IMG/VR virus record: IMGVR_UViG_3300032174_000008
Span: 1-52,775 of that record
Source of the DNA: a virus
Taxonomy: Duplodnaviria > Caudoviricetes
Length of the DNA stretch: 52,775 bases
Direction: 5' to 3' (one strand)
A program made the translations under genes and the position numbers. Position 1 is the stretch's first letter, and each line of letters starts with the position of its first letter. Below are positions 2,001-17,545 of the stretch, in pieces. The notes under the pieces were generated by a model. It saw nothing but the letters and a program-made list of their open reading frames with translations. It was not told the DNA's origin and made no database searches.

Positions 2001-2175
2001 GCATGTACACTCTGCGGCCATCAGTACCACTCGGCCTATGAGTTCAGCGCTCGGTTGCCCTCCTGAACCGCCTTATCATGGCCTCACTGCTTTACGGGCG
2101 AATGAAGAACGGATAAGGATAACGCTTCATTTCCGGTGGTCCGGGCCGCGCCGTAGTAATCAGCGTTACATTGCA
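2000..2175 (-). ncRNA. Candidate ~175-nt structured ncRNA
   Basis: Extended -10 TGTGGTAGAAT (2189-2179); 5'/3' ends pair; internal stems GCGGCC/GGCCGC, ACCAC/GTGGT, AATGAAG/CTTCATT, GTTCAG/CTGAAC; terminator follows; no convincing ORF. Confidence 0.55.
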
Positions 2176-2187
2176 ATCATTCTACCA

Positions 2188-2283
2188 CAAAACAGTTAAC
2201 CCGTCCACGGGAGTAGGCGGGTCAACCAAACGGAGGCAACGACACACGAGCGATAGAATACCGCAGTGGAGGACGGTTGTCAA
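2188..2283 (-). ncRNA. Small RNA with anti-SD tracts, including its promoter
   Basis: TTGACA(2283-2278)-N17-TATTCT(2260-2255); ~60-nt transcript containing TTGCCTCCGTTT; terminator GTTGACCCG/CGGGTTAAC-TGTTTT with loop CCTACTCCC. Confidence 0.6.
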
Positions 2284-2294
2284 ATGGCGGGCGA

Positions 2295-2765
2295 TTATCC
2301 CCCACTGAGCAGCAGCGGCATAGGATCACCAGCATAGCCGCGTTCGATTTGCGGGATCAGCACTTCGCCAACCGTGCGACGTTGCGGATCGCCGGGCGCT
2401 TCCAGTTGCGCCAGAAACGCCTGATCGAGCGTCTCGATGCCACTCTGAACCGACTCCAGCTTAGCCTTGATTACCAGCAGCAGCGACCGCCAACGCTCCT
2501 GGACCGCCTGCTTGTACGCGCGATCCATCTCGTCAGGTGAGCGTTTAGTTCGTGCGTGTTGATTAACGCCCTTGAATTTCATATCAGCGAGGTCGGGCAG
2601 TGGGACCGTGAACCGAATATTACGGTTGCCAACGCGAAAGCCCAGTTGAATAGCATCGTCCGTTTCGAGCGTGCCAATAGCTTCGGCCTTGTAGCGCTTT
2701 AAGGTAGTCCTGATTTCGGTGAACGTGCGCTCAGTGCTCACCGTGGTTCCCTTAGCATATGTCAT
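2295..2765 (-). CDS. Conserved phage hypothetical protein
   Basis: 156-aa ORF, ATGA overlap with upstream gene. Confidence 0.8.
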   Translation of the reverse strand: MTYAKGTTVSTERTFTEIRTTLKRYKAEAIGTLETDDAIQLGFRVGNRNIRFTVPLPDLADMKFKGVNQHARTKRSPDEMDRAYKQAVQERWRSLLLVIKAKLESVQSGIETLDQAFLAQLEAPGDPQRRTVGEVLIPQIERGYAGDPMPLLLSGG

Positions 2766-3478
2766 GATCGTTTCGCCTCACCCCATACATTACGCCCGAT
2801 CTTGCCCCACTCATCTGTGACATTGCCCTCCAGCCAGCGAGTCGGCCTGTCACGTAATGCCACGTCGCTGTCAAGTTTGGCACGCGCCCTGGCAAGTTGT
2901 GACGGTTTGTTCGTGACGCCAACCGTTAATTCCGTGCCATTCGATTTGGCAAACGCTACCAGTGCCGTTTCCTCCTTGTTGGCAGTTGTGACAAGTTTGG
3001 CAGTTGTCGGTTTCTTTGGCTTGCCATAACTGAATGTGTACAGCAGTGTCGAAAGTGGCAGGAGTGCCGGGATAAAGAATATCGCGCTGTCACGGATGAG
3101 TGTCACAAGCGGTATCCACTCAGCACGCACGCCCGCCGACACTGCCAACGCTGGCACGTGCTCAATCATGTAGATCATCTGTAGCAGATAGGTGAATCCG
3201 GCAAACGTGGCAAACGTGGCATATTTGGCACGACTGCGTTCGCCAGATCGCAGTTCGGAACTTGTCACAATCTGACCGAGGTCCACGGCAAACGCGATCA
3301 GCGCACCTGGCACTAGCCATGCCAACCACTGCCAGGTGAACTGGATTGGCTCAATACCGCCGAATAGAGTGGCAAGTGTCCAACTTGAGTGGATAAATGC
3401 CGCCGCGCCGGTTGCCGTGACGAGCGGTTGTGCCAACATCAGCCTGATAAATGGCATACGTGACAAGAAGGTGGTCAT
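2762..3478 (-). CDS. Multi-pass membrane protein
   Basis: About four hydrophobic segments followed by a basic tail; ATGA overlaps. Confidence 0.75.
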   Translation of the reverse strand: MTTFLSRMPFIRLMLAQPLVTATGAAAFIHSSWTLATLFGGIEPIQFTWQWLAWLVPGALIAFAVDLGQIVTSSELRSGERSRAKYATFATFAGFTYLLQMIYMIEHVPALAVSAGVRAEWIPLVTLIRDSAIFFIPALLPLSTLLYTFSYGKPKKPTTAKLVTTANKEETALVAFAKSNGTELTVGVTNKPSQLARARAKLDSDVALRDRPTRWLEGNVTDEWGKIGRNVWGEAKRS

Positions 3479-3726
3479 ATCGACTGCTCCTCGTCATATG
3501 GCACGCCCGCGTTAGTCGCCAAGATCGTAATCAGTTCAGCCGGTCGCATCAGCAACCGGATCGCCTCGTCTTTGGTTTCCAGTTCGCGCTCTAACTCCGC
3601 ATTCCGTATCAACACCGCGCGCACGTCCTCGACGAACAGCGCCGTCGTGCCGCGCTGGTGCTCTGCGGCCACGGCGAGCATGCTTTTGATGCGTTCAATT
3701 GCTTGTTGTGTTATAGTTGTTGACAT
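3475..3726 (-). CDS. Hypothetical protein
   Basis: GGAG SD upstream; translationally coupled to the next gene. Confidence 0.7.
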   Translation of the reverse strand: MSTTITQQAIERIKSMLAVAAEHQRGTTALFVEDVRAVLIRNAELERELETKDEAIRLLMRPAELITILATNAGVPYDEEQSI

Positions 3727-3793
3727 ACAGTTTTCTCCCTGTTGACAGTGCCCGGATCGAAAGTGGTCCGGGCATTTGATTTACGGTTAAACG

Positions 3794-4816
3794 CTACTTT
3801 GCTTTCGGATGGATCGCCCGGATATTGCGGTACGGATTCCCTTTGCTGTTCAGCTTCTTGGACAACTCGTAATCCACCGTAGCCGGGAAGTCGTACCGCG
3901 TAGCCAGTTGCATCGCGTCCACGTTCACCAGCGCGTACACCAGTTCCTTGTCGGCGTCGCTTTTTAGATAGAACATGGCATATTGTGCCTGTTTGCCATC
4001 TTCCAGCACCGGGTACAGGTCGATTTCCACTTTGCCGTCTTTCGCTGTAACCTTCTCGATCTGGTTGATTTCGGCATGCTGAATACCGCCGGTTTGCTGA
4101 ACATCTGGATCGAATGACTTGACCGGGGATGGAGCCGGGGCCGGGGTGTTTTGCGGCAACGCTGACCCTGGAGGGACAGTCGGCGGCGCATTCGTTGGCC
4201 CAACCCGCCGGTCAGCGGTTGACGGTGCCTCATTCGGTGTACGGCTCGATGCGTACCGCCCGCCGTCGCCCAACAGGGTATCCAGTACCGTCTCCAATCG
4301 TTTCACGCCGTCACTGACCATCGAGGAACGCACGGTCAGCAACACCTCTACGTTGTACTGCTTGTGCCACACTTTGACGGTTGCCGAGAACGGCGCTTCG
4401 GCAAGGTTGTCTAGGTTGGCGTTTACCTGTTGCGCGGGTGTTGGTTGCGGTTCGGTTTTCACGGTCGACTCCTCTGGACTGACGTAATCGGTTTCGTCGC
4501 CAACTTCCTCCTCAGCTTCTTTCGTTGGTTGTGCCGTCTTTGGATTCTTGTCAATTTTGACAATGAACGCCGCGATCTTCTTTGCCCAAAAATCGGCGGG
4601 ATTCTTGTCGAACAGCGGCCTCAGTTCAGCCGTGCCGCACGCCGCTTGCAGGATCGCCTTCCGTTTGCCAGCGTTCGCGCCCGGTGCCAGTTCGTCTAAA
4701 GTCGCACTGATTTGCATCTCGAAATCGGCATACGCCGCGTCGATGTCAACTTTGCCGGTGTCGTTGCGCGGGAAGTACGTATCTAACTCGGTGTTCGCTT
4801 GATTTTGTGAAGTCAT
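3794..4816 (-). CDS. Hypothetical protein, possibly ssDNA-binding or recombination
   Basis: 340 aa with Pro-rich linkers and a beta-rich C-terminal domain; AAGGATTAA before ATG; function is a guess. Confidence 0.7.
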   Translation of the reverse strand: MTSQNQANTELDTYFPRNDTGKVDIDAAYADFEMQISATLDELAPGANAGKRKAILQAACGTAELRPLFDKNPADFWAKKIAAFIVKIDKNPKTAQPTKEAEEEVGDETDYVSPEESTVKTEPQPTPAQQVNANLDNLAEAPFSATVKVWHKQYNVEVLLTVRSSMVSDGVKRLETVLDTLLGDGGRYASSRTPNEAPSTADRRVGPTNAPPTVPPGSALPQNTPAPAPSPVKSFDPDVQQTGGIQHAEINQIEKVTAKDGKVEIDLYPVLEDGKQAQYAMFYLKSDADKELVYALVNVDAMQLATRYDFPATVDYELSKKLNSKGNPYRNIRAIHPKAK

Positions 4817-4821
4817 CTCGA

Positions 4822-5088
4822 TTAATCCTTTTTAGCCCGGCTACCGCCGTTTTTCACTGTGAACAATTCGACCAGCGCCTTCCGAGTTATCCCCTGCCGC
4901 GCTGCCGCCCTGACCACTGACGGGTTATCCGCGAGTAACCGGCGCACAATCGCGCCGAATGAGCCGCGCTCCCACGTCATCCCGTATTCGATGGCCGCCG
5001 ATTTCAGCAGCACCTCGACCGGCTCAGGAACGATAAACTGAACCAGTTCCTTGCCGATGCCGTCTTTGCCTGTTTCCCACTTTGCCAT
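4822..5088 (-). CDS. Small DNA-binding protein, ribbon-helix-helix-like
   Basis: LVQFIVPEPVEVLLKSAAIEYG...FGAIVRRLL strand-helix-helix pattern; AGGAG SD. Confidence 0.55.
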   Translation of the reverse strand: MAKWETGKDGIGKELVQFIVPEPVEVLLKSAAIEYGMTWERGSFGAIVRRLLADNPSVVRAAARQGITRKALVELFTVKNGGSRAKKD

Positions 5089-5097
5089 GATTACTCC

Positions 5098-5337
5098 TTA
5101 ATTACGCGGCGGCTGGATGCTGCCGGTATATTCATCAATGCGTGCAACGACATTTTCCAGCGCGTCGGGCAGATTTGATCCTAAGAATACTTCATCTGAG
5201 CGGCCAAATTGCTGCATAATCCAACCGCGCCGCCCATCCTCTTGCCGATAACCGCGCCAAACGCGATACGACTGCCTATGCAGTGCGCTATACTCCGCCA
5301 CCATCCCTACAAGCTGTTTACGTGTAATCCGTGACAT
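5098..5337 (-). CDS. Hypothetical protein
   Basis: AGGAG SD; fits the leftward operon. Confidence 0.7.
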   Translation of the reverse strand: MSRITRKQLVGMVAEYSALHRQSYRVWRGYRQEDGRRGWIMQQFGRSDEVFLGSNLPDALENVVARIDEYTGSIQPPRN

Positions 5338-5346
5338 TTTAATCTC

Positions 5347-5541
5347 CTATTCCATCGCTACGCGGCTGATCCCGCGTGTTACCTGCCGACTCTGTATCTT
5401 GCGCACGTTGAATTCGGCGCGCCGCTCCAACCGCGTCGCCTCGTTCACCGACCACACGCCCGAACCGCCTCCCAGCGACCGGATTAACATGGCGGTAATC
5501 GTGTCCTGGTTCGCTTTGCTGATTAACATTTGCTTCGACAT
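5347..5541 (-). CDS. Hypothetical protein, first gene of leftward early operon
   Basis: AGAAGGATCAA before ATG; strong promoter just upstream. Confidence 0.65.
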   Translation of the reverse strand: MSKQMLISKANQDTITAMLIRSLGGGSGVWSVNEATRLERRAEFNVRKIQSRQVTRGISRVAME

Positions 5542-5570
5542 CTGGTTGATCCTTCTTGGTTGATTTCACT

Positions 5571-5599
5571 ATCATATATCATAAACGAGCGTTTGTCAA
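5571..5599 (-). promoter_or_regulatory. Leftward early sigma70-type promoter
   Basis: TTGACA-N17-TATGAT. Confidence 0.8.
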
Positions 5600-5705
5600 T
5601 AAGCAGTTTTTAAAACTGGTCTAGCGGAGTATAATTACTATCTATCGAAATAGAAAAGCCCGACGCGGTTAACGTCGGGACTTTAAGCCCTGAATTGGAG
5701 GGCAT

Positions 5706-6473
5706 ATGACAGAGTCTAATTCAAACCTGCCTGTTCGTCAACCCGGACAATCGATGTTTGCCGGGTTAAAGCCATCTGGCGACATGTCCAAACCAGAGGC
5801 GTTGACATCTATAAATCAAATCAACAACAAACTGACAGCCATTGAAGGGCATCTAAGTCAAATACGGCGCTTAGTTGTTGAACTGAACGAGCGCAAAGGT
5901 TGGAAAGCGCTTGGCTATACTTCGTTTCGTGAATGCGCTGAAGCTGAGTTTGGAAAGTCAATGCGAACCATTTACAACATGCTTACTTCGGGAATTGTTG
6001 AGCGCAATGTTTTTCCGGACTCGGAGAATTTTGCAGAGTCTGCAAACATACACCCGGTAATACCTGACGTGGTAGCAAAAGAACTGAAAACGCTTGAACC
6101 CGCCGATCAGAAAGCCGTTTACGAGTTTGCCGTTGCGACTGCGCCTGAAGGCAATGTGACGGCACGGTGGGCAAAGGCGACCAGGGTTGTTTACGAGCAA
6201 GCTAAGCTGACGGGCGGCTATGTGGACATCGGCAACGGAGAGAGTACAGCATTAGAAGCTGCTGTCGCTCAAGAAGCACATGAAACAATGCTCCGCCAGA
6301 AACAGCATATTGCCGAGAGCACGAGAAAGAAGATTAAAATCTATAGCGGGCGCGGATTTGTACGCGATGACGGGCTTATCCGGCCTATGGATGACGATCA
6401 ACCTGTCCCGTTCGGGCACTACGTAAAAATAACAATATACGAGGAGGATGAGGAGGAAGATACAACCATCTGA
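5706..6473 (+). CDS. Phage DNA-binding protein (DUF3102-like motif)
   Basis: WKALGYTSFRECAEAEFGKSMRTIYNML motif; GGAGG SD; own -10 TATAAT at 5630-5635. Confidence 0.7.
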   Translation: MTESNSNLPVRQPGQSMFAGLKPSGDMSKPEALTSINQINNKLTAIEGHLSQIRRLVVELNERKGWKALGYTSFRECAEAEFGKSMRTIYNMLTSGIVERNVFPDSENFAESANIHPVIPDVVAKELKTLEPADQKAVYEFAVATAPEGNVTARWAKATRVVYEQAKLTGGYVDIGNGESTALEAAVAQEAHETMLRQKQHIAESTRKKIKIYSGRGFVRDDGLIRPMDDDQPVPFGHYVKITIYEEDEEEDTTI

Positions 6474-6484
6474 CAAATTGGTTG

Positions 6485-6513
6485 TTGACACGCCGCGCAA
6501 TATGATATATGAT
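6485..6513 (+). promoter_or_regulatory. Rightward early sigma70-type promoter
   Basis: TTGACA-N17-TATGAT; last 13 nt identical to the leftward promoter. Confidence 0.8.
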
Positions 6514-6550
6514 TGTGCGTATCGTATGTCACTCTAAAAAGGATCAACGT

Positions 6551-6778
6551 ATGGATTACGCGATCACACTGTTACCCGGCGGCAAGATAATCCGCCTGTC
6601 AACTGTACACTACTGGTGTACGGTTAGCGCGGCCTGGTGGGGCGCGCGCACGGATGCACAGCGCACGGCGTACGCCAACGGGCTGACGGCGAAGAATGCA
6701 CACGGGATCGCGCAAACGAGCGTGCAATGTGGCGCGCGGGCGTGGTCGTTTCCGATGGGAGCGTGGCTCAATGGCTGA
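6551..6778 (+). CDS. Hypothetical protein (MDYAITLL...)
   Basis: AAGGATCAA box before ATG 6551; the track start 6509 lies inside the promoter. Confidence 0.65.
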   Translation: MDYAITLLPGGKIIRLSTVHYWCTVSAAWWGARTDAQRTAYANGLTAKNAHGIAQTSVQCGARAWSFPMGAWLNG

Positions 6779-7046
6779 CAAACCGTTGAAAGTACACGTC
6801 CGTTTGGTGAAGATCGTACCCGGCCCGGCGTTTCTCGGCTGGCGGCGTATCGTGTTGTTTGAGGGCGTTCGCAGTACAGATGAAGTGCAACAAACCGCTT
6901 ACGTCTGGTTACGCGCCTTCATCAACACGCACGACGTTTACATTCCGGGTGACCCAGTATATGGACCGGGAAGGCTGTCTGACATATTCCCCGCTGATCA
7001 TCACATCGGATCGCCGTCGTATCAGGTCGAGGTGAGCTATGTCTGA
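6771..7046 (+). CDS. Hypothetical protein (MADKPLKV...)
   Basis: GGAG SD; 8-nt overlaps with neighbours. Confidence 0.65.
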   Translation: MADKPLKVHVRLVKIVPGPAFLGWRRIVLFEGVRSTDEVQQTAYVWLRAFINTHDVYIPGDPVYGPGRLSDIFPADHHIGSPSYQVEVSYV

Positions 7047-7236
7047 AAAGCTCAGCAACACCTTCGTCGGCACGATGCGACCGCGCGAATACGCGGCGTA
7101 CCAGATTGCGATTGCGGCGGGGCTGGAAGTCAAAGCGCGAATTGAGAAGCGCAAACAGCAGGAAAACAGTGAGCGCCCGGTGAATGCCGAGCGCCCGCCG
7201 ACTTCTGATCAACTGGGATGTCTACTCAATAAGTAA
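7039..7236 (+). CDS. Hypothetical protein
   Basis: GAGGTG SD. Confidence 0.55.
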   Translation: MSEKLSNTFVGTMRPREYAAYQIAIAAGLEVKARIEKRKQQENSERPVNAERPPTSDQLGCLLNK

Positions 7237-7304
7237 CCTCCCTGAATTCCTGAGGGCCAGTTATCTGGCAACGAAAAGCGTAACGCTAAACGAAAAGGAT
7301 TGCA

Positions 7305-7721
7305 ATGGGAAAACACGCAACTATCAAAGCGCTAGAGCCAGTGTACATAACGCTCAGCGACCGAACCAATCCCGACCTGGGGAACTTTCTCAAAATCAGC
7401 ATGAGCGAACAACTGTTCATCAACGCGCTGTCATACTTTGGAAAAGACTTGCCAACGCCGGTATGCGAGTTTCGATTCAATCGACCGGCAAAGCACCGCG
7501 CCGATTTCGCGTGGATGGAAGCGTGGCTGCTTGTCGAATGTGACGGCGGTACACACAAGCAGGGCGGCGGACGGCATGGCGGGGACGCTGACCGGGTGAA
7601 ACTGAACTTTGCCGCCATCCTCGGCTATCGCGTGTTACGTTTCAGCACCGACATGCTGCAATCCAATCCTGAAACGTGTATCCAGGTGGTGAGTAAAGCG
7701 CTTGCTTATGGCAATCGCTAG
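7305..7721 (+). CDS. DUF559/Vsr-like PD-(D/E)xK endonuclease
   Basis: EFRF...RADFAW...LVECDGGTH...GGRH...D..K.N.A...GYRVLRFS. Confidence 0.85.
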   Translation: MGKHATIKALEPVYITLSDRTNPDLGNFLKISMSEQLFINALSYFGKDLPTPVCEFRFNRPAKHRADFAWMEAWLLVECDGGTHKQGGGRHGGDADRVKLNFAAILGYRVLRFSTDMLQSNPETCIQVVSKALAYGNR

Positions 7722-7827
7722 AAACGAAAACGCCGCCGGTAGAAGGATCAAAACTCCGGTAGCGCTTCCGACTTCACCCAAACATACGAACCACGTTTAG
7801 AATACACGTAAATCGTGAAACTGTCAA
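7721..7827 (-). ncRNA. Small RNA with loop TTTTGATCCTT, including its promoter
   Basis: TTGACA(7827-7822)-N17-TATTCT(7804-7799); hairpin CGCTACCGG/CCGGCGGCG then TTTTCGTTTC. Confidence 0.65.
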
Positions 7828-7871
7828 CCGAGGATTAATCCTCATAATTGAGCTTATCGGAAGGAACCAGC

Positions 7872-8153
7872 ATGGACGTTGAACCAATCGGATTTTTGAG
7901 AGCGATAGAACATTCTGATAGCGCATGGGTCGTCACCGCCATGCGTCGCAATTATGGACGCCATCGCACGATAGTCATCGAACGAATGGACAGTCATTTA
8001 GCAAATGACACGACCTGGTTCATGCGCGTATTCAACAAGGGGCTACTTATGTACCAGCGCCCAGGAATCGCCACTGTCTACGATGCAATTGCCCAGGCTG
8101 AAGATTGGATAACGCGACACCCCCACCCCGATGAAGAACAGGAGGCGCAGTGA
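7872..8153 (+). CDS. Hypothetical protein
   Basis: GAAGGA SD before ATG 7872. Confidence 0.65.
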   Translation: MDVEPIGFLRAIEHSDSAWVVTAMRRNYGRHRTIVIERMDSHLANDTTWFMRVFNKGLLMYQRPGIATVYDAIAQAEDWITRHPHPDEEQEAQ

Positions 8154-8347
8154 ATACAAAGGGTCTAGGAAAACGCGAAATAGCCCTGCTCCGTGAGTTG
8201 CGCAAAGCTCCACAAACATATACCTGTTGGGATCGTCGGTTCATTGCATTGGCTGATCGCGGGCTTATTGATGGTAAAGGCGTGTATGGAAGTTGGACTT
8301 TCGCCCTTACTGAGAAGGGTCGCGCCTATGTTGATTACTCCCGATAA
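8150..8347 (+). CDS. Small winged-helix-like hypothetical protein
   Basis: GGAGG SD; LADRGLI...ALTEKGRAY. Confidence 0.6.
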   Translation: MNTKGLGKREIALLRELRKAPQTYTCWDRRFIALADRGLIDGKGVYGSWTFALTEKGRAYVDYSR

Positions 8348-8376
8348 ACGACGATCTCGGAAGTAAAGGATCAACC

Positions 8377-8556
8377 ATGACCAAAATCAAACAACCGTAC
8401 ACCGCCCGCGCCAAAGAGCCGCGAAAAACGTGCCCAGTATGCCGTGAGCTTAACCGGGACTACAGGTACCTCTTTAAGGACGAGTACGGCAACTGGTACT
8501 GTTTAGGTTGCCGGAAGCGCGATAGGTTATTGGCGCTGCACGAGGACCAACGATGA
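8377..8556 (+). CDS. 59-aa zinc-finger protein (not in ORF track)
   Basis: AAGGATCAA box; MTKIKQ...CPVC...WYCLGC...; ATGA overlap with the methylase. Confidence 0.75.
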   Translation: MTKIKQPYTARAKEPRKTCPVCRELNRDYRYLFKDEYGNWYCLGCRKRDRLLALHEDQR

Positions 8557-9269
8557 CTAAGCCGCGATTGCTCGATCTGTTTTGCGGCGCTGGCGGGGCT
8601 GGAGTGGGTTACAGCCGGGCTGGCTTCGAGGTGGTCGGTGTGGACATCGCACACCAGAAACATTACCCTTTCGAGTTTCATCAGGCCGACGCGCTGAAAT
8701 ATGCAGCAGCACACGGCCACGAATTTGACGTGATACACGCCAGCCCGCCGTGCCAACGCTACTCAGTTATGACAAAAGGCAGATGGGCAGACCGCGAACA
8801 TCCCGATTTAATTGCAAAGTCGCGCGCGGTAATCGCTTTGTTCGGTGTGCCATACGTCATAGAAAATGTCAGCGGCGCGTCAGGCGAATTGATTTGCCCG
8901 ATTGTACTGTGCGGTACGATGTTCGGGCTTTCCACAAGAAGCGGCAATCAACTACGACGACATCGGCTGTTTGAATGTGGCGGATTTTGGTGTCTGGTTC
9001 CGAACTGCCAGCACAATGACGGGTCAGCGATTGGCGTCTATGGTGGTGGACAAAACCCGCAGCGTAGACGACCCGCCACTGTTGGCGTATGGGGGCACAG
9101 TGGCGGGTCGTCTACGCGAGATAGGATAGTTCAATTCACAGCAAGCGAACGCAACCAAGCCATGGGTATCGATTGGATGACGCAAGCCGAGTTGTCAGAG
9201 GCCATTCCGCCTGCTTACACCGAGTTCATCGGCAAGCAGTTGATACCGCTAACCGCTTGCGCGCCATAG
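8553..9269 (+). CDS. DNA (cytosine-5) methyltransferase
   Basis: LDLFCGAGG (motif I), ASPPCQ (IV), YVIENV (VI). Confidence 0.9.
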   Translation: MTKPRLLDLFCGAGGAGVGYSRAGFEVVGVDIAHQKHYPFEFHQADALKYAAAHGHEFDVIHASPPCQRYSVMTKGRWADREHPDLIAKSRAVIALFGVPYVIENVSGASGELICPIVLCGTMFGLSTRSGNQLRRHRLFECGGFWCLVPNCQHNDGSAIGVYGGGQNPQRRRPATVGVWGHSGGSSTRDRIVQFTASERNQAMGIDWMTQAELSEAIPPAYTEFIGKQLIPLTACAP

Positions 9270-9285
9270 CAGGCCGGGGTATACT
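9257..9285 (+). promoter_or_regulatory. Promoter for replication genes
   Basis: TTGCGC-N17-TATACT. Confidence 0.6.
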
Positions 9286-9299
9286 CGTAAGCATCTAAA

Positions 9300-9378
9300 T
9301 AGAAAAACCGCCTGCTGGGAACAAGCGGTTTCTGCAAACCACTAAGGTTAGTATAACCCACATGGTTCGCAGTTACAA
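9300..9378 (-). ncRNA. Counter-transcribed small RNA in the rep leader, including its promoter
   Basis: TTGTAA(9378-9373)-N17-TATACT(9355-9350); terminator AAACCGCTTG/CAGGCGGTTT-TTCT. Confidence 0.65.
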
Positions 9379-9402
9379 CCCCCATAGAGAAAGCAAACCA
9401 CG

Positions 9403-10284
9403 ATGACAAGTTTACACTGGGAAGTACGTAAATACGCCCACGACCTGCGACCGGACGGACGGTTAGCGGTTCTTGTGGTGTTGATACTTCATTCCAACGT
9501 TCGATTGCGCTGCTGGCCGAGCGTTGATTTATTGGAATACGAGACGGGTTGGGGTCGCGCCTCAGTCGTTGACGCCAAACAATGGTTAATCGATCACGGT
9601 GCGATTGAACTTGTTCCACATGACAAGCGCGTGGGGGACGAACTTGAATTGCCGCCACGACAACATATTTACCAGTTGACCGGCGTAATTACAGTCAATG
9701 GCGTTCAACACCCTTATCTATACCTGAATCCTAAAGAAACCGCACCGTTGCCCAATAGTACGGTAGGCGAAAGTTCGGTAGGCGAAAGTTCGCCCAGCGA
9801 ACCTAAAGGTATTCCATTGGATCAAGGTATTCCAGAACCTAAAGATAACTATGCGCCTAACGGCGCGGAGCCGGATCTTGATGCTCCATTGACATTCAAG
9901 ACAAAGAGGGGACCGGTCAAACAACCACCGACCTATGGCGATCTGTTCGTTTCAATCCGTGACTGGCTAGGGACTGGAGAAGCGTATACTGGAAAGCTGA
10001 CTAAGGCGTTGCTTAAAGAATGCCCAGATGCTACAGCGCTCGAATTCAAGCGTTTCATTAGCTATTGGAGCGACAGAGGACTCGAAAAGCCCAGCGGCAC
10101 CGATACGCTGCCGAAGCAGTTTGGAATATGGCGCAAGGATCACGTACCTGATGTGAGTGCCGTGATCGAAGTCACGCCCCAGCCAGATGAAACTGCATAT
10201 GGTTGGCTATCAACGTACAAGGCCGCGCCCGCGCCTATCCATCACGAACCGCCCGCTGACGATGACGACATGGGGGTATGGTGA
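9403..10284 (+). CDS. Replication initiator, N-terminal HTH
   Basis: CWPSVDLLEYETGWGRASVVDAKQWLIDHGAI helix-turn-helix; internal iterons; upstream of primase-helicase. Confidence 0.75.
   Translation: MTSLHWEVRKYAHDLRPDGRLAVLVVLILHSNVRLRCWPSVDLLEYETGWGRASVVDAKQWLIDHGAIELVPHDKRVGDELELPPRQHIYQLTGVITVNGVQHPYLYLNPKETAPLPNSTVGESSVGESSPSEPKGIPLDQGIPEPKDNYAPNGAEPDLDAPLTFKTKRGPVKQPPTYGDLFVSIRDWLGTGEAYTGKLTKALLKECPDATALEFKRFISYWSDRGLEKPSGTDTLPKQFGIWRKDHVPDVSAVIEVTPQPDETAYGWLSTYKAAPAPIHHEPPADDDDMGVW
9761..9844 (+). repeat. Iteron-like repeats, putative origin
   Basis: CGGTAGGCGAAAGTT x2 tandem (9761-9790), GAACCTAAAG x2, AAGGTATTCCA x2. Confidence 0.6.
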
Positions 10285-12311
10285 ATATGGACAAGCTCAA
10301 AGCACGCGGCATTGACAGCGTAGCGCTGGACAACGAATGGCGACCGGGGCCGTGGACGCGGCATAACGACGATGGTTCAACGACTACGTTTGATGGCTGG
10401 TACGCACCGCTGTTTGACAGTATGGGTAAGCGCCTGGTAAACCACGAAAAGGGTAAGCCGGTTCTCACCTGGAAAAACGCTGATAGCAGCGCCGATCCCC
10501 ATGATACGTGGATCAACTACATCCAGGGGTATAAACCGCTGATGTTGCCCAAGCGCGGCATTCAGGATAGCGTAAAACGCGCCAACGGCACACTGAACAT
10601 GGTTGAGGGAAAGGCCGATACGCTGTCGATGTGGAGCGCCAAAATCGGGAACTGCATCGGCATATTCGGCGCCAGTTTCGTGCCTGGCGATCTACTTACC
10701 CAATTCCGGCAATGGGGCGTTGACCTGCTGCGCGTGTTCGTACACCCCGACGAGGCCGGGTTGAAATCGGCGCAAAAGATCGCCGATGCGCTGGATGATC
10801 ATCTGGATATCCATTTTCTCGTACTGCCCGAAATCGACGGCAAGAAATTCGATCTCAATGACTTCTGGGTACGCGCCGGGTTTGACAATGCGGTGTTTCG
10901 CACGGCGCTACAAAAGTTGCCCGAACGTGAATTCAAGCCGCGTCCAATTCCTCAATGGAAACCAGTACCCACCGTACCCACCGACATTCCATTGAACCGG
11001 CTACAGGCCTACGCCAACGCCGCGTTTAATCACATCCTGTCCGATTTACTGACCGTGACTAGCGCTCGTAACATCGCGCTGAATAATGCCGCGTTCAAAA
11101 CAGGCACGTTCGTCGGGTCCGGGGCGCTGGACAACAATCACGTTGAGAATGAGTTGATCCAGGCTGGAGTCAGCATCGGGCTGGGCCACAATGCCAGCGC
11201 CGCAACGGTTCTATCCGGGTTGACGGCAGGGGTTAAAAGTCCGGCTGACCTATCGCAATTGAAACCGCGTGACCGACAAACAACTACTCGCGTTCGGATA
11301 ATCGACGCGTCAACCGATGGTCTATCGACTGAAAACGCCGAACCGGATAGCGCGCAAGCCGTGACCAACATAACCACCAAGTCAGCCCTGATTAAGCAGC
11401 GCCGTGCCGAAATGGCCGCCCGGCAAGCAACCAACACACTCCCAATGCCTTTTCAGACGGTAGCCCAGAAACGCGGCTTCGCATCGGCTTTCAAGCGTAA
11501 AAAGGTGTACGCGTTTATCGCTGATAGCGGAGCCGGTAAAACATCGATGCTCGAAACGTTGATTGATTTCTACTTGCAGAACGGGTTTTCCGGTGTGGTG
11601 TACAGTCCAGAGTGGGACGGCGACGAATGGGTTATGGGAACCATTCAGCGGGCTGGCGGCCCGTCGTATATGGCTCAAGTCGAACATGACTCACGCCAAT
11701 CTTCAAACGATACTGAGCACGAGGCCGAATACATCGCTACAGTGAACGCCGTACTTGACCGGATTGACGCGTGGCCTGGTGACATTCGATTTGTCGAACA
11801 AGCCGAATCGCCGTGCGCTGAGGACATCCTTGCCGGAATGAGCGCGGCGTATATCGACAGTGAGGCTAAAGGTAAGCTGCTGTCGTTTGCCGCTGTCGAT
11901 TACGCTCAGATGTTCCTATCCCGAACCGGAAAAACTGAACTTGAGCAGATGAACCGGGCGCTGTATCAGTTCAAACGCTTTTGTATCGCGCACGATATGG
12001 TTGGGTTGGTAGGCAGTCAGATCACCAAAGAGGCCGGGCAAGCCAAAGGCAGGCCGTCGCATACCGGCATGATGGGTGCTCGGTCGGACGCTTTCAATTT
12101 TGCCGCGTTCATTATCCGCGAACGGGACACTGACGACAGTTACAAGCCGAATGCCAAACTGCACATTGTCAAGAATTCGCGCGGCAGGCTGGGCAAGTGC
12201 GAGATATACCAGCATCCCGTTACCGCCGCGTGGCACTCCGGCGTATGGCAACCGGAACCGTACACCAACGGGCGGTATATTGAACCGGAAACGGAGGCAA
12301 TACCGTTCTGA
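10278..12311 (+). CDS. Toprim primase / DnaB-like SF4 helicase fusion
   Basis: VEGKAD and HPDEAG Toprim motifs; RNIALNNAAF middle domain; ADSGAGKT Walker A, AVDYAQ, GSQ, IVKNSRG. Confidence 0.88.
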   Translation: MVNMDKLKARGIDSVALDNEWRPGPWTRHNDDGSTTTFDGWYAPLFDSMGKRLVNHEKGKPVLTWKNADSSADPHDTWINYIQGYKPLMLPKRGIQDSVKRANGTLNMVEGKADTLSMWSAKIGNCIGIFGASFVPGDLLTQFRQWGVDLLRVFVHPDEAGLKSAQKIADALDDHLDIHFLVLPEIDGKKFDLNDFWVRAGFDNAVFRTALQKLPEREFKPRPIPQWKPVPTVPTDIPLNRLQAYANAAFNHILSDLLTVTSARNIALNNAAFKTGTFVGSGALDNNHVENELIQAGVSIGLGHNASAATVLSGLTAGVKSPADLSQLKPRDRQTTTRVRIIDASTDGLSTENAEPDSAQAVTNITTKSALIKQRRAEMAARQATNTLPMPFQTVAQKRGFASAFKRKKVYAFIADSGAGKTSMLETLIDFYLQNGFSGVVYSPEWDGDEWVMGTIQRAGGPSYMAQVEHDSRQSSNDTEHEAEYIATVNAVLDRIDAWPGDIRFVEQAESPCAEDILAGMSAAYIDSEAKGKLLSFAAVDYAQMFLSRTGKTELEQMNRALYQFKRFCIAHDMVGLVGSQITKEAGQAKGRPSHTGMMGARSDAFNFAAFIIRERDTDDSYKPNAKLHIVKNSRGRLGKCEIYQHPVTAAWHSGVWQPEPYTNGRYIEPETEAIPF

Positions 12312-12601
12312 TGAGCGCGATAGCCGATTGGACTGTTGAGGATTTGCTTGTGCTGTTGACCCACGATCTTGACCGCGTGGATATTCGGCGTATAGCTGGA
12401 CGATTTGTCATCATTGACGAATGGGCCGGCGGGTTTCGGTATACTGACCTGACGCCCCTGGTCGATGAGGCGATACGCGCTAAACTGATGACAATCAATT
12501 CAAGGATGCTGTGCTTAACCGGCAAAGGTTACGACATGGCGCGTGACGCCGAACAAGAGCAGTTTATCGCGTCAATCGTATGGAATACCAAAAAGGATTA
12601 A
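12311..12601 (+). CDS. Hypothetical protein
   Basis: ATG directly abuts the upstream TGA; GGAGG upstream. Confidence 0.7.
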   Translation: MSAIADWTVEDLLVLLTHDLDRVDIRRIAGRFVIIDEWAGGFRYTDLTPLVDEAIRAKLMTINSRMLCLTGKGYDMARDAEQEQFIASIVWNTKKD

Positions 12602-12604
12602 CCA

Positions 12605-12832
12605 ATGACCGCCAAACAACTCGTAAAGGCGCTTCTCCTGGCGCTGGTGAACGGTATCACCACCGATGACCTTGACCGGATGATCGTCGCTATCTACCGC
12701 CTCGAAACAGAACGCGAATCGCTCGCTGAGCAGTTATTCATTAGCCGCGCTCAGGTGTACGTGATGCAGCACAAGGATCGGAAGCCGACGCAGTTCAAAC
12801 ACCGGGCAAATCATCTATACTCAGCCGAATGA
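12605..12832 (+). CDS. Hypothetical protein
   Basis: AAGGATTAA box before ATG. Confidence 0.65.
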   Translation: MTAKQLVKALLLALVNGITTDDLDRMIVAIYRLETERESLAEQLFISRAQVYVMQHKDRKPTQFKHRANHLYSAE

Positions 12833-12858
12833 TAGAAAGTGTAAAAAGGATCAAAACC

Positions 12859-15120
12859 ATGTCAAACATCAAATCATACGCCGAATTTCTAGAATCGAAA
12901 ACGCTGATTGTTCAGCCATCGGGCAAGGCAATCGACCCCGCGTTAGTAAATCCTGTACTGTTTCCATTCCAGCGCGATATTGTCGTATGGGCAGTACGCA
13001 AAGGGCGGGCGGCTATTTTCGCGTCTACAGGGCTAGGAAAAACCGCTATGCAGGTCGAATGGGCACGGTTGGTCGGTGAGCGAACAATCATCGTAGCGCC
13101 CCTGTCTGTAGCGCGTCAGACGGTACGTGAATCGCTGTCCTTGTTGGGTGTGACGATAAAGTACGTGCGGGGCGACTCGGAGATTGACGACAGCCACAAG
13201 TTATACATCACGAACTACGAGATGATCGAGCACTTCGATCCGGCGTTGTTTGGTGCGGTTGTACTGGACGAGTCCTCAATCCTCAAATCAATTGATGGTG
13301 CAACCAAAGATCGTCTAATTGAAATGTTCGCCGATACGCCTTATCGGTTGTGTGCCACGGCTACCCCTGCACCAAACGACATCAAGGAATTGGCGAACCA
13401 CTCCGAATTTCTCGGCATTATGAACCGCCGCGAAATGCTCAGTTGCTTTTTCCGGTACACGCAATCGAGCAGCACCGAACGCGCCGACGCGTGGCAACTG
13501 AAGGGGCACGCCGTACAAACGTTTTACGAGTGGCTGGCTTCATGGTCTATCGCTATCGTCAAGCCGTCCGATCTGGGTTACTCGGATAACGGGTACATAT
13601 TACCAAAACTGACCGTTGACCTCGTGACCGCTGAAACCGATTACACGCCGGACGGCTTGTTGCCGGGTATGCTGATCAAGGCGGTCAGCGCGATTGAGGC
13701 GAAACGGTTACGCCATCAAACGATTGCCGACCGCGCCGCGCTGGTTGCCACAACGATAAACGCCAGTGCAGAGCAGTGGATCGTGTGGGTCGGCTTGAAT
13801 GATGAGGGCGACTTGCTCGAAAAGCTGATCGGCGACAGCGTGCAGGTATATGGCAGTCAAACGCCTGAACAGAAATCAGAACTCATCGAAGCATTCCAGG
13901 ACGGTAAACACCGTGTCATGATCACAAAATGCAAGATCGCCGGATTTGGATTAAACCTCCAAAACTGCCATAACATGGTGTTTTTCGGGATCGACTATTC
14001 GTGGGAATCATATTACCAGGCCGTTCGGCGCTGCTATCGGTTTGGGCAACAATTCCCGGTCAATGTTCAGATCGTCACCTCCAGTCAGGAGATTGACGTA
14101 TATAACACTCTCATGCAAAAGGAAAAAGAGGCAACCGCCATGATCGATAAACTGGTGCAATCCGTTGCGCCCAATTCGGAATTGAACCCGTTAGCGCACA
14201 AATCGGCGGCTTACAAAACCGACAAGCAAACCGGCAACGGCTGGACACTGATGCTTGGTGACAGCACCGAACGGCTGAGCGAAATACCAGACGAGTCGAT
14301 TGACTTATCTGTATATTCGCCGCCGTTCAGCGACCTGTTTGTATACAGTGCCAGCGTGCGTGACATCGGCAACTCGAAGTCTCAAAACGAATTCTTTGAG
14401 CATTACGGGTATATCATCCGTGAAAACTTGCGCGTGACGAAACCGGGCCGCCTGTGCTGTGTTCACTGTCAGGATTTACGCGCCTACCAGAACCAGGATA
14501 ACTACATTGGCATGAAGGATTTCACTGGCGACGTTATCCAGGCCTACCGTGATAACGGCTGGGAATTCTGGCATCGGATCACAATCGACAAAGATCCGCA
14601 AGTGCAGGCCGTTCGCCTGAAGGATAGCCGGTTGCTGTTTGTGACACTGCGCAAGGATAGCACGCGGCTGGCCGGTGGGTACGCCGACTACGTGCTGATC
14701 TTCAAAAAACCGGGCGATAATCAGGTTCCGGTTGTGCCTGATGTGTCAGAGCAGGAATGGATCAATTGGGCGCGTCCGGTTTGGAACGGTATCAAAGAAA
14801 CCGCCGTGTTACCCGTTCGGCAAGCCAAGGCGTCAGATGACGAAAAGCACATGTGCCCAACGCAACTACCGGTACTGGAGCGCTGTATCCGGTTGTGGTC
14901 AAACAAAGGCGAAACGGTGTTATCTCCGTTCGCTGGGATCGGCAGTGAAGGGCACGAGTCTATCCGGTTGGGCCGTCAGTTCGTGGGGATTGAATTGAAG
15001 CCGGAATACTACAACGTGGCGCTGATTAACTTGCGCAACGCCGAACACCTCGCCGGGTCACATGACCTGTTCGCGTGGGCTGAACAGAACGCCGAACTGG
15101 AAGTGGAGGGGGAACCGTGA
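12859..15120 (+). CDS. SNF2-like helicase fused to N4/N6 DNA methyltransferase
   Basis: STGLGKT, LDESS, TATPAPN, GLNLQ, QAVRRCYRFGQ; then VYSPPF and SPFAGIGS; start 12859 chosen from the AAGGATCAAAAC box (track start 12829). Confidence 0.9.
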   Translation: MSNIKSYAEFLESKTLIVQPSGKAIDPALVNPVLFPFQRDIVVWAVRKGRAAIFASTGLGKTAMQVEWARLVGERTIIVAPLSVARQTVRESLSLLGVTIKYVRGDSEIDDSHKLYITNYEMIEHFDPALFGAVVLDESSILKSIDGATKDRLIEMFADTPYRLCATATPAPNDIKELANHSEFLGIMNRREMLSCFFRYTQSSSTERADAWQLKGHAVQTFYEWLASWSIAIVKPSDLGYSDNGYILPKLTVDLVTAETDYTPDGLLPGMLIKAVSAIEAKRLRHQTIADRAALVATTINASAEQWIVWVGLNDEGDLLEKLIGDSVQVYGSQTPEQKSELIEAFQDGKHRVMITKCKIAGFGLNLQNCHNMVFFGIDYSWESYYQAVRRCYRFGQQFPVNVQIVTSSQEIDVYNTLMQKEKEATAMIDKLVQSVAPNSELNPLAHKSAAYKTDKQTGNGWTLMLGDSTERLSEIPDESIDLSVYSPPFSDLFVYSASVRDIGNSKSQNEFFEHYGYIIRENLRVTKPGRLCCVHCQDLRAYQNQDNYIGMKDFTGDVIQAYRDNGWEFWHRITIDKDPQVQAVRLKDSRLLFVTLRKDSTRLAGGYADYVLIFKKPGDNQVPVVPDVSEQEWINWARPVWNGIKETAVLPVRQAKASDDEKHMCPTQLPVLERCIRLWSNKGETVLSPFAGIGSEGHESIRLGRQFVGIELKPEYYNVALINLRNAEHLAGSHDLFAWAEQNAELEVEGEP

Positions 15121-17368: not shown

Positions 17369-17545
17369 CGGGTCTACTCCTTTGTCAAGCCCGCCGGTTT
17401 AGTCTTGTCCGGCGGGTTCTTTATTTACGATGCTTTTTATTATACCTCGCTTTTTCCAATTGTGATCGCATTGTAACGCCGCCGTCCGTGTTTCGCGGTA
17501 TACTGAGCGCATCAGTCGAAACCGAAAGTAAGAAGGATCAAACCC

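What the first reader, a model, noticed from the sequence alone, without database searches (positions are those of the whole stretch)
7721..7843. Trans-acting sRNA complementary to an AAGGATCAA box shared by many early-gene start regions (candidate master translational switch)
Seen: a near-consensus promoter (TTGACA-17-TATTCT) would drive a ~70-nt minus-strand RNA whose terminator loop is GTTTTGATCCTTCT. Its complement AAGGATCAA lies just before five start codons: 5541 (11-nt match, 5546-5556, minus), 6551 (6539-6547), 8377 (8366-8374), 12859 (12-nt match, 12846-12857) and 17546 (12-nt match, 17531-17542). The G-U-compatible AAGGATTAA precedes 4816 and 12605. Targets include the first gene of both divergent early operons and the SNF2-methylase. 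Inference: one loop-presented anti-RBS RNA co-represses a regulon and may stand in for the missing CI-type repressor. It resembles P4 CI and P1 C4 RNAs in logic but has dispersed targets. A perfect palindrome GAGGATTAATCCTC (7830-7843) abuts the promoter.
Basis: partly seen in the sequence, partly recalled or inferred. Interest (0 to 1): 0.85.

Follow-up and report, generated by a model that had tools for sequence, protein, structure and literature searches.

The report
Candidate phage small RNA against shared ribosome sites
A soil phage seems to encode a roughly 70-base RNA whose hairpin loop is the exact complement of a ribosome-binding motif shared by seven unrelated early genes, which suggests one RNA could switch their translation off together, though no expression data exist.

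Summary
AAGGATYAA occurs 10 times against 0.56 expected. Seven copies lie 2-5 nt before ATG starts of seven unrelated early genes.

The motif goes beyond the Shine-Dalgarno core. TYAA follows 7 of 16 AAGGA-type ribosome sites but only 3 of 69 other AAGGA (p=2e-4). It marks 7 of 29 early and 0 of 40 late genes.

An eighth copy (7743-7751) fills the 11-nt loop of a minus-strand hairpin with a U-tract. A TTGACA-17-TATTCT promoter ends 30 nt upstream. Promoters this good are enriched in intergenic DNA: 5 seen, 0.28 expected.

The best reading is a trans-acting anti-RBS sRNA, at confidence 0.45. There are no relatives and no RNA data, so transcription and repression are inferred.

The box resembles the start-associated sequences (SAS) of cluster K mycobacteriophages, whose function is unknown. 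In those phages I found the lone reverse SAS in the loop of a hairpin supported by covariation. That is an independent parallel.

The idea that the RNA replaces a CI repressor is unsupported.

The parts
7822..7827 (-). -35 hexamer TTGACA of the candidate sRNA promoter
   Evidence: minus strand 7827..7799, TTGACA-17-TATTCT, 10 of 12; 5 such promoters lie in intergenic DNA against 0.28 expected.
7799..7804 (-). -10 hexamer TATTCT
   Evidence: The hexamer ends 30 nt before the hairpin.
7722..7792 (-). Predicted sRNA of about 70 nt. The start is inferred at about 7 nt after the -10, and the 3' end within the U-tract.
   Evidence: fold. No ATG/GTG/TTG follows the + strand box (read directly). Only shadow ORFs overlap the gap. 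No Rfam family matches.
7731..7764 (-). Terminator-type hairpin: 4+4 G-C-rich pairs plus 2 closing pairs.
   Evidence: -11.4 kcal/mol, followed by TTTTCGTT; whole-RNA MFE -24.4.
7743..7753 (-). 11-nt loop UUUUGAUCCUU. Its 9-mer UUGAUCCUU is the exact complement of the AAGGAUCAA box.
   Evidence: unpaired probability 0.91-1.00.
7723..7730 (-). U-tract UUUUCGUU. It reaches the stop codon of the + gene 7305-7721.
   Evidence: The + strand has no T-run after the hairpin.
7830..7843 (.). Perfect palindrome GAGGATTAATCCTC, 2 nt upstream of the -35. It also lies inside the spacer of a weaker + strand promoter-like site.
   Evidence: unique exact copy.: + 7821..7848, CTGTCA-16-CATAAT, 9 of 12.
5546..5554 (-). 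Box AAGGATCAA, 4 nt before ATG 5541 (64 aa, first gene after P_L 5599-5571).
   Evidence: 11-nt match to the 7743 locus. Pairing energy -11.1 kcal/mol, rank 3 of 69.
6539..6547 (+). Box, 3 nt before ATG 6551 (75 aa, first gene after P_R 6485-6513).
   Evidence: Rank 6 of 69.
8366..8374 (+). Box, 2 nt before ATG 8377 (59 aa).
   Evidence: Rank 8 of 69.
12846..12854 (+). Box, 4 nt before ATG 12859 (SNF2 helicase / N6-N4 methylase fusion, 753 aa).
   Evidence: 12-nt match. Rank 1 of 69, -12.8 kcal/mol. The start is supported.
17533..17541 (+). Box, 4 nt before ATG 17546 (65 aa, a lone + strand gene with its own terminator at 17751-17775).
   Evidence: 12-nt match. Rank 2 of 69.
4822..4830 (-). 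Box variant AAGGATTAA, 5 nt before ATG 4816 (340 aa). Its TAA is the stop of the upstream gene 5088-4822.
   Evidence: Rank 5 of 69 with a G-U pair.
12593..12601 (+). Box variant AAGGATTAA, 3 nt before ATG 12605 (75 aa). Its TAA is the stop of gene 12311-12601.
   Evidence: Rank 4 of 69.

Best explanation
A sigma-70-type promoter (TTGACA-17-TATTCT) in the 150-nt gap between two rightward early genes drives a leftward non-coding RNA of about 70 nt. The RNA ends at an intrinsic terminator.

The 11-nt terminator loop, UUUUGAUCCUU, is single-stranded. It is the exact complement of AAGGAUCAA, an extended ribosome-binding motif that sits 2-5 nt before the AUG of seven unrelated early genes. As the RNA accumulates, its loop pairs with 9-12 nt of these leaders. 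That covers the Shine-Dalgarno core and the spacer, keeps 30S subunits off, and lowers translation of the box genes together. The result would be an RNA-based early-gene shut-off.

Because the RNA is also fully complementary to the rightward polycistronic mRNA at 7722-7792, it would pair there in cis as well.

Shown:
- the motif, its position before starts, its restriction to early genes and its excess over chance;
- the promoter, the hairpin, the U-tract and the open loop.

Inferred:
- transcription;
- termination at this hairpin;
- pairing in vivo;
- repression rather than activation.
For: 1. Box statistics. There are 10 copies against 0.56 expected. TYAA follows 7 of 16 AAGGA-type RBS but only 3 of 69 other AAGGA, Fisher p=2e-4. 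It marks 7 of 29 early genes and 0 of 40 late genes, p=0.0014. All 7 starts are ATG. The 7 proteins show no pairwise similarity below E=1, so the box is not a by-product of gene duplication.

2. Promoter. It scores 10 of 12. Of the 11 sites this good in the genome, 5 lie in the 5.2% that is intergenic, against 0.28 expected. None of 100 Markov simulations reached 4.

3. Geometry. The -10 ends 30 nt before the hairpin. A second unit with the same two hexamers (2283-2255) has 28 nt.

4. Terminator polarity. The U-tract lies on the minus strand only. No minus-strand gene lies upstream that would need a terminator.

5. Loop. The anti-box fills 9 of the 11 loop bases, each unpaired with P>0.9. Apart from the self-match, exact complementary 9-mers of the RNA that fall in ribosome-site leaders all come from the loop region.

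6. Energies. The box leaders rank 1, 2, 3, 4, 5, 6 and 8 of 69, at -12.8 to -4.8 kcal/mol, against a median of -1.0.

7. Precedent for the mechanism. Terminator-loop and hairpin-loop CU-rich motifs of LhrC bind an SD region (PMC4132741, passages).

8. Independent parallel. In cluster K mycobacteriophages the single reverse-oriented SAS lies in the apical loop of a conserved hairpin. The loop reads CCUCCUAUCCC on the strand on which the neighbouring genes are annotated. Compensatory changes support the hairpin: 7 of 9 outer-stem pairs changed on both sides, and for the whole structure 10 of 39 pairs did so, a count that 0 of 500 shuffles reached.
Against: - No transcript evidence exists. No RNA run holding this phage is listed.
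- No relative could be examined, so there is no conservation or co-variation.
- The hairpin is modest (-11.4 kcal/mol), and its 11-nt loop exceeds the 3-8 nt allowed by the terminator scan, which did not flag it. The whole-RNA fold has z of only -1.85, and 11 of 200 shuffles fold as well.
- The flanks of the targets do not extend the match beyond chance. By my count, there are 8 extra matched bases over 14 flanks, where about 4.7 are expected.
- The copy at 7743 has the same orientation as the surrounding genes and resembles true RBS boxes in its flanks (GTAG-box-AAAC). It could therefore be a relic or a cis element of the + mRNA.
- This genome has at least five other intergenic hairpins whose U-run lies on the antisense strand. 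Such a hairpin alone therefore does not prove an sRNA.
- In the cluster K parallel the loop diverges in 6 of 16 sequences and is lacking in 2 more. Unicorn, one of the 6, keeps the same SAS consensus, so clean co-variation is not seen there either.
- The energy ranking (point 6 of the evidence for) follows from the complementarity itself and is not independent evidence.
Confidence: 0.45

Rival explanations
1. The box is only an extended ribosome-binding and spacer motif, like the SAS of cluster K phages, selected for translation of early genes. The copy at 7743 is a relic RBS or a cis element of the rightward mRNA that happens to sit in an intercistronic hairpin. No trans regulation by RNA takes place.
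For: - All seven functional copies are in RBS position.
- The 7743 copy is in the sense orientation and shares flanks with true boxes.
- AAACGAAAA occurs both in the leader of gene 7305 (7288-7296) and just before the hairpin (7722-7730). This hints at duplication of leader sequence.
- Five other intergenic hairpins with an antisense U-run lie 15-30 nt upstream of ribosome sites, where they may simply be 5'-leader structures.
Against: - No start codon follows the 7743 copy. The three frames stop after 2, 15 and 19 codons (read).
- It does not explain why the relic is centred in an 11-nt loop between a promoter that is unlikely to be chance and a U-tract on that promoter's strand.
- The hairpin is 92 nt from the next SD, unlike the leader hairpins.
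Confidence: 0.25
2. The small RNA is made but acts only in cis. It pairs with the perfectly complementary stretch of the rightward early mRNA. This triggers cleavage between gene 7305-7721 and the downstream methylase and replication genes, or interferes with converging transcription, as lambda OOP does with cII mRNA. On this view the loop resembles the box because of its origin, not its function.
For: - Complementarity in cis is complete by construction.
- The location is opposite-strand within the rightward early operon, upstream of an O-like replication initiator at 9403-10284. This recalls OOP (PMC12197685, section 4).
- The promoter and terminator evidence is the same as for the best explanation.
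Against: - The RNA overlaps no coding sequence or ribosome site apart from the stop codon of 7305-7721, so the benefit of cleavage there is unclear.
- A loop of arbitrary sequence would serve a purely cis function. An exact 9-12-nt match to five leaders is then a coincidence of order 1e-5 per loop, by my estimate from base composition.
Confidence: 0.15
3. A phage or host RNA-binding protein recognises the box in early leaders, as T4 RegA represses about 30 mRNAs. The hairpin-presented copy at 7743 in the rightward mRNA is an extra operator or decoy.
For: - RegA-type repression of many early and middle mRNAs at their initiation regions is established (PMC3014915, passages).
- Most early proteins here have no known family, so a binder could be hidden among them.
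- The SAS paper leaves open whether the ligand is RNA or protein (PMC3203893).
Against: - No RegA family match was found. That search rang in no control genome, so it is uninformative.
- It does not explain the minus-strand promoter and U-tract.
Confidence: 0.1
4. The motif works at the DNA level. The palindrome GAGGATTAATCCTC and the AGGATYAA boxes are whole and half sites for a DNA-binding regulator of early transcription.
For: - The palindrome contains AGGATTAA on both strands and abuts two back-to-back promoter-like sites.
- The boxes at 5546 and 6539 lie 10-30 nt downstream of P_L and P_R.
Against: - The strict spacing of 2-5 nt from ATG, and orientation with the gene in 7 of 7 cases, are properties of an RNA signal.
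- The palindrome is unique.
- No partner half-site lies beside the boxes.
- Four of the seven boxes are far from any promoter-like site.
Confidence: 0.05

Closest known systems
Start-associated sequences (SAS) of cluster K mycobacteriophages (Pope et al. 2011, PMC3203893; passages read)
   Same: Both are asymmetric conserved motifs that contain the SD core and lie a few nt before start codons. In both, conservation extends beyond what can pair with 16S rRNA, starts are mostly ATG, the motif is confined to non-structural genes of unrelated families, and it sometimes overlaps the stop of the upstream gene. Function is unknown, and an RNA or protein ligand was left open as late as 2024-2025 (PMC11373665; PMC12699233).
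   Different: The sequence differs (AAGGATYAA versus GGGATAGGAGCCC) and there are fewer copies (7 versus 11-19). There are no extended inverted repeats (ESAS). The host and phage lineage are unrelated. Here the complementary copy has its own opposite-strand promoter and terminator.
Anti-SD hairpin-loop sRNAs of Gram-positive bacteria: LhrC (PMC4132741, passages), RNAIII and 6C (PMC2837412 and PMC6486639, search listing and abstract starts only)
   Same: A C/U-rich motif presented in a hairpin loop, including a terminator loop in LhrC, pairs with the SD region of mRNAs and blocks initiation. Several targets share the complementary motif.
   Different: Those are chromosomal RNAs that use short UCCC-type motifs against generic SDs. 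Here a phage RNA would use a longer, specific 9-12-nt match to a private box carried by the phage's own early genes.
Phage antisense and immunity RNAs: P22 sar, lambda OOP (PMC12197685, section 4); P1 c4 / P4 CI (Rfam C4, RF01695)
   Same: These are short phage RNAs of about 70 nt with their own promoter and terminator. They act by base pairing at or near ribosome sites (sar, c4) or lie on the opposite strand in the early operon (OOP).
   Different: sar and OOP overlap their target gene in cis. That c4 and CI RNA act on sites within their own operon is recalled, not checked here. This candidate overlaps no gene, and its matches are spread over 13 kb on both strands. No C4 model match was found.
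T4 RegA translational repressor (PMC3014915, passages)
   Same: One factor competes with the ribosome at the initiation regions of many early and middle mRNAs and shuts them off together.
   Different: RegA is a protein that recognises loose A/U-rich sites. Here the proposed factor is an RNA and the site is an exact shared motif.

Membership tests
Rfam C4 antisense RNA (P1 c4 / P4 CI RNA, RF01695) | Match to the family covariance model | tested here: not met
   There was no Rfam family at gathering score over the whole window. Nothing was found at the locus at E<=1 over 1-18500. A direct RF01695 search of the genome gave 0 matches at E<=10.
Independent bacterial-type sRNA gene | Own sigma-70-type promoter | tested here: met
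   TTGACA-17-TATTCT scores 10 of 12. Intergenic enrichment is 5 observed against 0.28 expected.
Independent bacterial-type sRNA gene | Intrinsic terminator (G-C-rich hairpin plus U-tract) on the same strand, within about 50-300 nt | tested here: met
   Hairpin 7764-7731 at -11.4 kcal/mol followed by UUUUCGUU. Caveat: the loop is 11 nt, so the stricter scan did not list it.
Independent bacterial-type sRNA gene | No plausible ORF | tested here: met
   Only shadow ORFs of 48-50 aa overlap the gap, and the codon-usage gene caller did not select them.
Independent bacterial-type sRNA gene | Detected transcript | not testable with these tools
   No RNA run is listed for this phage. The host is unknown.
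Independent bacterial-type sRNA gene | Conservation or covariation in relatives | tested here: inconclusive
   No relative was found in INPHARED, IMG/VR, JGI metagenomes or GTDB genomes. The single primase relative, P0002 at 41% identity, lies on a contig that could not be fetched.
Start-associated sequence (SAS)-type motif | Conserved asymmetric motif with the SD core within a few nt of start codons, oriented with the gene | tested here: met
   7 of 10 copies lie 2-5 nt before ATG, all oriented with the gene.
Start-associated sequence (SAS)-type motif | Conservation beyond the SD core | tested here: met
   TYAA follows 7 of 16 RBS-type AAGGA and 3 of 69 others, p=2e-4.
Start-associated sequence (SAS)-type motif | Restricted to non-structural genes of unrelated families | tested here: met
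   7 of 29 early genes against 0 of 40 late genes, p=0.0014. No similarity among the 7 proteins.
Start-associated sequence (SAS)-type motif | Sequence GGGATAGGAGCCC (the cluster K family proper) | tested here: not met
   The box is AAGGATYAA. It is an analogue, not a member.
cis-antisense RNA (OOP / sar / RNA-OUT type) | Overlaps the coding region or ribosome site of a gene on the other strand | tested here: not met
   The predicted RNA 7792-7722 ends just before the stop codon TAG (7719-7721) of gene 7305-7721. It is still complementary to the intercistronic mRNA.
Anti-SD loop sRNA (RNAIII / LhrC / 6C type) | C/U-rich motif in an accessible loop, complementary to SD regions of several mRNAs | tested here: met
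   Loop bases are unpaired with P>0.9. There is 9-12-nt complementarity to 5 leaders and 9 nt with one G-U pair to 2 more.
Anti-SD loop sRNA (RNAIII / LhrC / 6C type) | Demonstrated binding and translational repression | not testable with these tools
   Needs gel shift, toeprint or reporter assays.
RegA-type protein repressor | RegA homologue (Pfam PF01818) encoded by the phage | tested here: inconclusive
   There was no match, but the search rang in none of the control genomes either.

The most novel reading that the evidence does not exclude
Start-associated boxes paired with a loop-presented anti-box RNA are a recurrent phage device for timing translation. One structured RNA carries the complement of a private ribosome-site motif and thereby controls a whole set of non-structural genes. 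The device would have arisen independently in this orphan soil phage (AAGGAUCAA boxes and the 7792-7722 RNA) and in cluster K mycobacteriophages (GGGAUAGGAGCCC SAS and the conserved right-end hairpin RNA with loop CCUCCUAUCCC). That would give the SAS, unexplained since 2011, a ligand.
Probability: 0.3. Interest if true: 0.85.

Novelty: new variant of a known kind. Interest (0 to 1): 0.66.

Why it matters
Known phage regulatory RNAs act on one neighbouring gene or on host mRNAs. An RNA that represses a dispersed set of the phage's own early genes through a shared ribosome-site box would be an RNA counterpart of T4 RegA. It would also be a compact early-to-late switch.

The finding would give a testable ligand for start-associated motifs, whose function in cluster K mycobacteriophages has been open since 2011. 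The box and anti-box pair would also be a portable, orthogonal translational switch for engineering.

Tried and rejected
**Relatives (all blank)**
- megablast and blastn of the locus and of 24 kb of the late region against 50,697 phage records gave one irrelevant 128-bp methylase match.
- tblastn of the primase gave no match.
- IMG/VR was searched with both flanking proteins, with the exact 24-mer of the hairpin and with a primase alignment. JGI metagenomes and GTDB genomes were also searched.
- A protein search found one 41% primase relative on a contig I could not fetch.

**Expression**
- No RNA holder is listed.
- Laying the two DNA runs showed only the same phage. The second run had no cover over 7338-8004, so it gave no variation at the locus.

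**Families**
- No Rfam match and no tRNA or tmRNA.

**Ideas dropped**
- The GATC inside the box as a methylation or restriction signal. GATC is not depleted: 265 observed, 308 expected.
- The boxes as a by-product of paralogous genes.
- The boxes sitting in hairpin loops of their mRNAs. They are only moderately open, with mean P(unpaired) of 0.43-0.73 against 0.50 for all SD regions.
- A second seed in the 5' tail of the RNA. Its complementary 9-10-mers fall on non-transcribed sense or inside coding sequence.

**Methods discarded**
- Unrestricted duplexfold of the whole RNA gave meaningless long duplexes.
- My loose terminator scan called 135 sites. Its promoter-terminator pair count therefore does not discriminate.

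**Other**
- Supplementary tables and figures of the SAS papers were not seen. They list all SAS sites and may already mark the reverse site's context.

Full report
**What the window is**

The 52,775-bp window is a whole phage genome. It is an IMG/VR record with terminal repeats and 100% estimated completeness, and it came from soil metagenomes.

It is nearly an orphan:
- There is no DNA match and no primase match among 50,697 phage records.
- There is nothing in IMG/VR, JGI metagenomes or GTDB genomes.
- There is one 41% primase relative among 5.8 billion proteins.

A codon-usage gene call and family scans give this map:
- A leftward early operon runs from 5541 to 2295.
- A rightward early operon runs from 5706 to 15500. 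It holds a DUF559 protein, a C5 methylase, an O-like initiator, a primase, an SNF2/methylase fusion and a MazG-like protein.
- A small leftward operon runs from 17368 to 15563.
- A lone rightward gene lies at 17546-17743.
- The late genes lie on the minus strand. They wrap round the ends: TerS is at 1498-911 and the C-terminal part of TerL is at 52644-52093.
- No tyrosine integrase and no HTH_3 protein was found.

AAGGATYAA occurs 10 times against 0.56 expected, with a maximum of 3 in 100 shuffles. Seven copies lie 2-5 nt before an ATG that opens an ORF. These are the ATGs at 4816, 5541, 6551, 8377, 12605, 12859 and 17546.

In the two T-variants the TAA is the stop codon of the upstream gene.

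The two best promoter matches in the first 20 kb are the divergent pair at 5599-5571 (-) and 6485-6513 (+). Both are TTGACA-17-TATGAT, 11 of 12, and they share ATGATATATGAT. The first gene after each carries the box.

For the SNF2/methylase fusion, 15 of the 15 listed tblastn alignments start at residue 2 or 6 of the box-preceded start.

**The box is more than a Shine-Dalgarno sequence**

- Of 16 ribosome sites of the AAGGA type, 7 continue with TYAA. Of the 69 other AAGGA in the genome, 3 do (p=2e-4).
- The box marks 7 of 29 genes that start at or before 17800 and 0 of 40 later ones (p=0.0014).
- The seven proteins are unrelated.
- GATC is not depleted.

This is the profile of the start-associated sequences of cluster K mycobacteriophages (PMC3203893, passages). 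It is an analogue, not a member, because the sequence differs.

**The eighth copy**

The + strand 7743-7751 has no start codon after it. On the minus strand it is the centre of the loop UUUUGAUCCUU of a hairpin (7764-7731, -11.4 kcal/mol) that is followed by UUUUCGUU. On the + strand no T-run follows.

The -10 of a TTGACA-17-TATTCT promoter (7827-7799) ends 30 nt before the hairpin. Promoter matches of 10 of 12 or better number 11 in the genome. Five of them lie in the 2,724 intergenic bases, where 0.28 are expected, and none of 100 simulations reached 4. This promoter is therefore probably real.

The predicted 71-nt RNA keeps every loop base open (P 0.91-1.00). Apart from the self-match, its exact complementary 9-mers that fall in ribosome-site leaders all come from the loop region.

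With opening energies included, the seven box leaders rank 1, 2, 3, 4, 5, 6 and 8 of 69. Their energies run from -12.8 to -4.8 kcal/mol, against a median of -1.0. This ranking follows from the complementarity and is not independent evidence.

**Context inside the genome cuts both ways**

A second unit has the same two hexamers (2283-2255). Its -10 ends 28 nt before a stronger hairpin with a U-run. The RNA it predicts has CCUCC in its 5' tail and a UCCC apical loop. This unit sits at the early/late boundary.

Five more intergenic hairpins have their U-run on the strand opposite to the flanking genes. They start at 3747, 5684, 17388, 34575 and 35964. Each has a -10-like element 24-32 nt upstream.

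These five lie 15-30 nt upstream of ribosome sites. On the antisense strand, four of them would give small RNAs with the anti-SD in the loop region of a first hairpin. They may be cis-antisense RNAs, or they may be plain 5'-leader hairpins preceded by an A-rich start.

So an antisense-oriented terminator alone is not proof of an sRNA here. The 7743 hairpin differs from these in three ways: it has a full consensus -35, it lies 92 nt from the next SD, and it carries the box itself in the loop.

**An independent parallel**

In Anaya I found 16 forward copies and that one reverse copy. The reverse copy lies in a 385-nt unannotated gap after an intrinsic terminator. On the + strand, the strand on which the neighbouring genes are annotated, it reads CCUCCUAUCCC. 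It forms the apical loop of a hairpin with stem GCGCGG/CCGCGC inside an outer stem of about 10 bp.

The region is conserved in 182 cluster K records. I fetched 15 of the 60 listed records, chosen to span 72-90% identity, and aligned them with Anaya.
- The consensus structure has 39 pairs, and 94% of cells are paired.
- Ten pairs changed on both sides, a count that 0 of 500 shuffles reached. Slid controls give 0-6 such pairs.
- Seven of the nine outer-stem pairs of the anti-SAS hairpin are compensatory.
- Frequent G-U pairs put the structure on the + strand.

The loop is the exact anti-SAS in 8 of 16 sequences. It is a C/U-rich variant in 6, and it is lacking in 2 (Marshawn and Yuna).

Unicorn has a variant loop but keeps the standard SAS consensus. 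Loop and box therefore do not co-vary cleanly. By my reading, its loop still matches 8 of 10 SAS positions.

No Rfam family covers the region. In the passages I read from three SAS papers, and in the listings, no such RNA is mentioned. I did not see the supplements.

**Mechanism and odds**

I put about 0.75 on the RNA being transcribed. I put 0.45 on the full reading, in which the loop pairs with the box leaders and lowers their translation. Pairing in cis with the rightward mRNA would be an unavoidable second activity.

| Rival | Confidence |
|---|---|
| SAS-like motif with a relic or cis copy | 0.25 |
| Purely cis, OOP-like RNA | 0.15 |
| RegA-like protein ligand | 0.10 |
| DNA operator | 0.05 |

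The suggestion that the RNA replaces a CI repressor has no support, because nothing indicates lysogeny.

**Verdict**

This is a new variant of known kinds: phage antisense RNAs, anti-SD loop sRNAs and start-associated motifs. The decisive tests are simple: a Northern blot, and reporter assays with compensatory mutations.

Noticed in passing
window 2183-2283 (-), with 2179-2207 (-) and 1962-2002 (-): A second TTGACA-17-TATTCT promoter is followed, 28 nt after the -10, by a -17 kcal/mol hairpin and a U-run. The predicted RNA of about 60 nt has CCUCC in its 5' tail and a UCCC apical loop. An extended -10 (TGgTAGAAT) then overlaps the U-run, and a -21.5 kcal/mol terminator lies just before the late genes. 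The 328-nt gap at the early/late boundary looks like a promoter-proximal termination or antitermination region, or a second anti-SD RNA.
   Followed up: partly
window 3747-3790 (+), 5645-5684 (-), 17388-17430 (+), 34575-34620 (+), 35964-36020 (+): Five intergenic hairpins have their U-run on the strand opposite to the flanking genes. Each has a -10-like element 24-32 nt upstream, inside the first codons of the gene. For four of them the predicted antisense RNAs of 60-70 nt have the anti-SD of that gene in the loop region of a first hairpin. This may be a set of RNA-OUT-like cis-antisense RNAs, or just 5'-leader hairpins.
   Followed up: partly
L001:34830-34930 (Mycobacterium phage Anaya, record 59829-59929) and alignment A2: The single reverse-oriented SAS of cluster K1 phages sits in the apical loop of a conserved hairpin supported by covariation. 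The hairpin belongs to a structured region on the strand of the neighbouring genes, preceded by a TAGACT conserved in the 13 of 16 aligned rows that reach it. The region is unannotated in most records and called a hypothetical protein in some.
   Followed up: partly
window 47288-47299 (+): The 12-mer AAGGATCAAAAC, identical to the copies at 7743 and 12846, occurs a third time, antisense to the late gene 48817-46667. That late mRNA therefore carries the same anti-box sequence as the sRNA loop. Chance expectation for a given 12-mer is about 0.006.
   Followed up: no
window 7288-7296 and 7722-7730 (+): The 9-mer AAACGAAAA flanks the DUF559 (Vsr-like) gene 7305-7721 as a direct repeat. One copy lies in its leader and the other just after its stop, where it forms the A-tract of the hairpin. 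This may be a trace of insertion or of leader duplication.
   Followed up: no
window 9062-9082 and 9097-9117: A perfect 21-nt inverted repeat with a 14-nt spacer lies inside the 3' part of the C5 methylase gene 8553-9269.
   Followed up: no
window 2179-2193 (-) and 17341-17355 (+): Two sites share a 15-mer with an extended -10 (GTTKTGTGGTAGAAT, 14 of 15 identical). Each lies about 30 nt upstream of a hairpin. A match of this size alone is within chance for 18.5 kb.
   Followed up: no
window 5567-5583 and 6501-6517: The divergent early promoters share ATGATATATGAT around the -10. The sequence is quasi-palindromic, so each also reads as a weak -10 on the other strand. Gene 5706-6473 (255 aa, no family) lies between them.
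   Followed up: no
window 1-910 and 52093-52775 (-): The large terminase gene appears to run across the ends of the record, so the assembly is circularly permuted. No integrase was found in the complete genome.
   Followed up: partly
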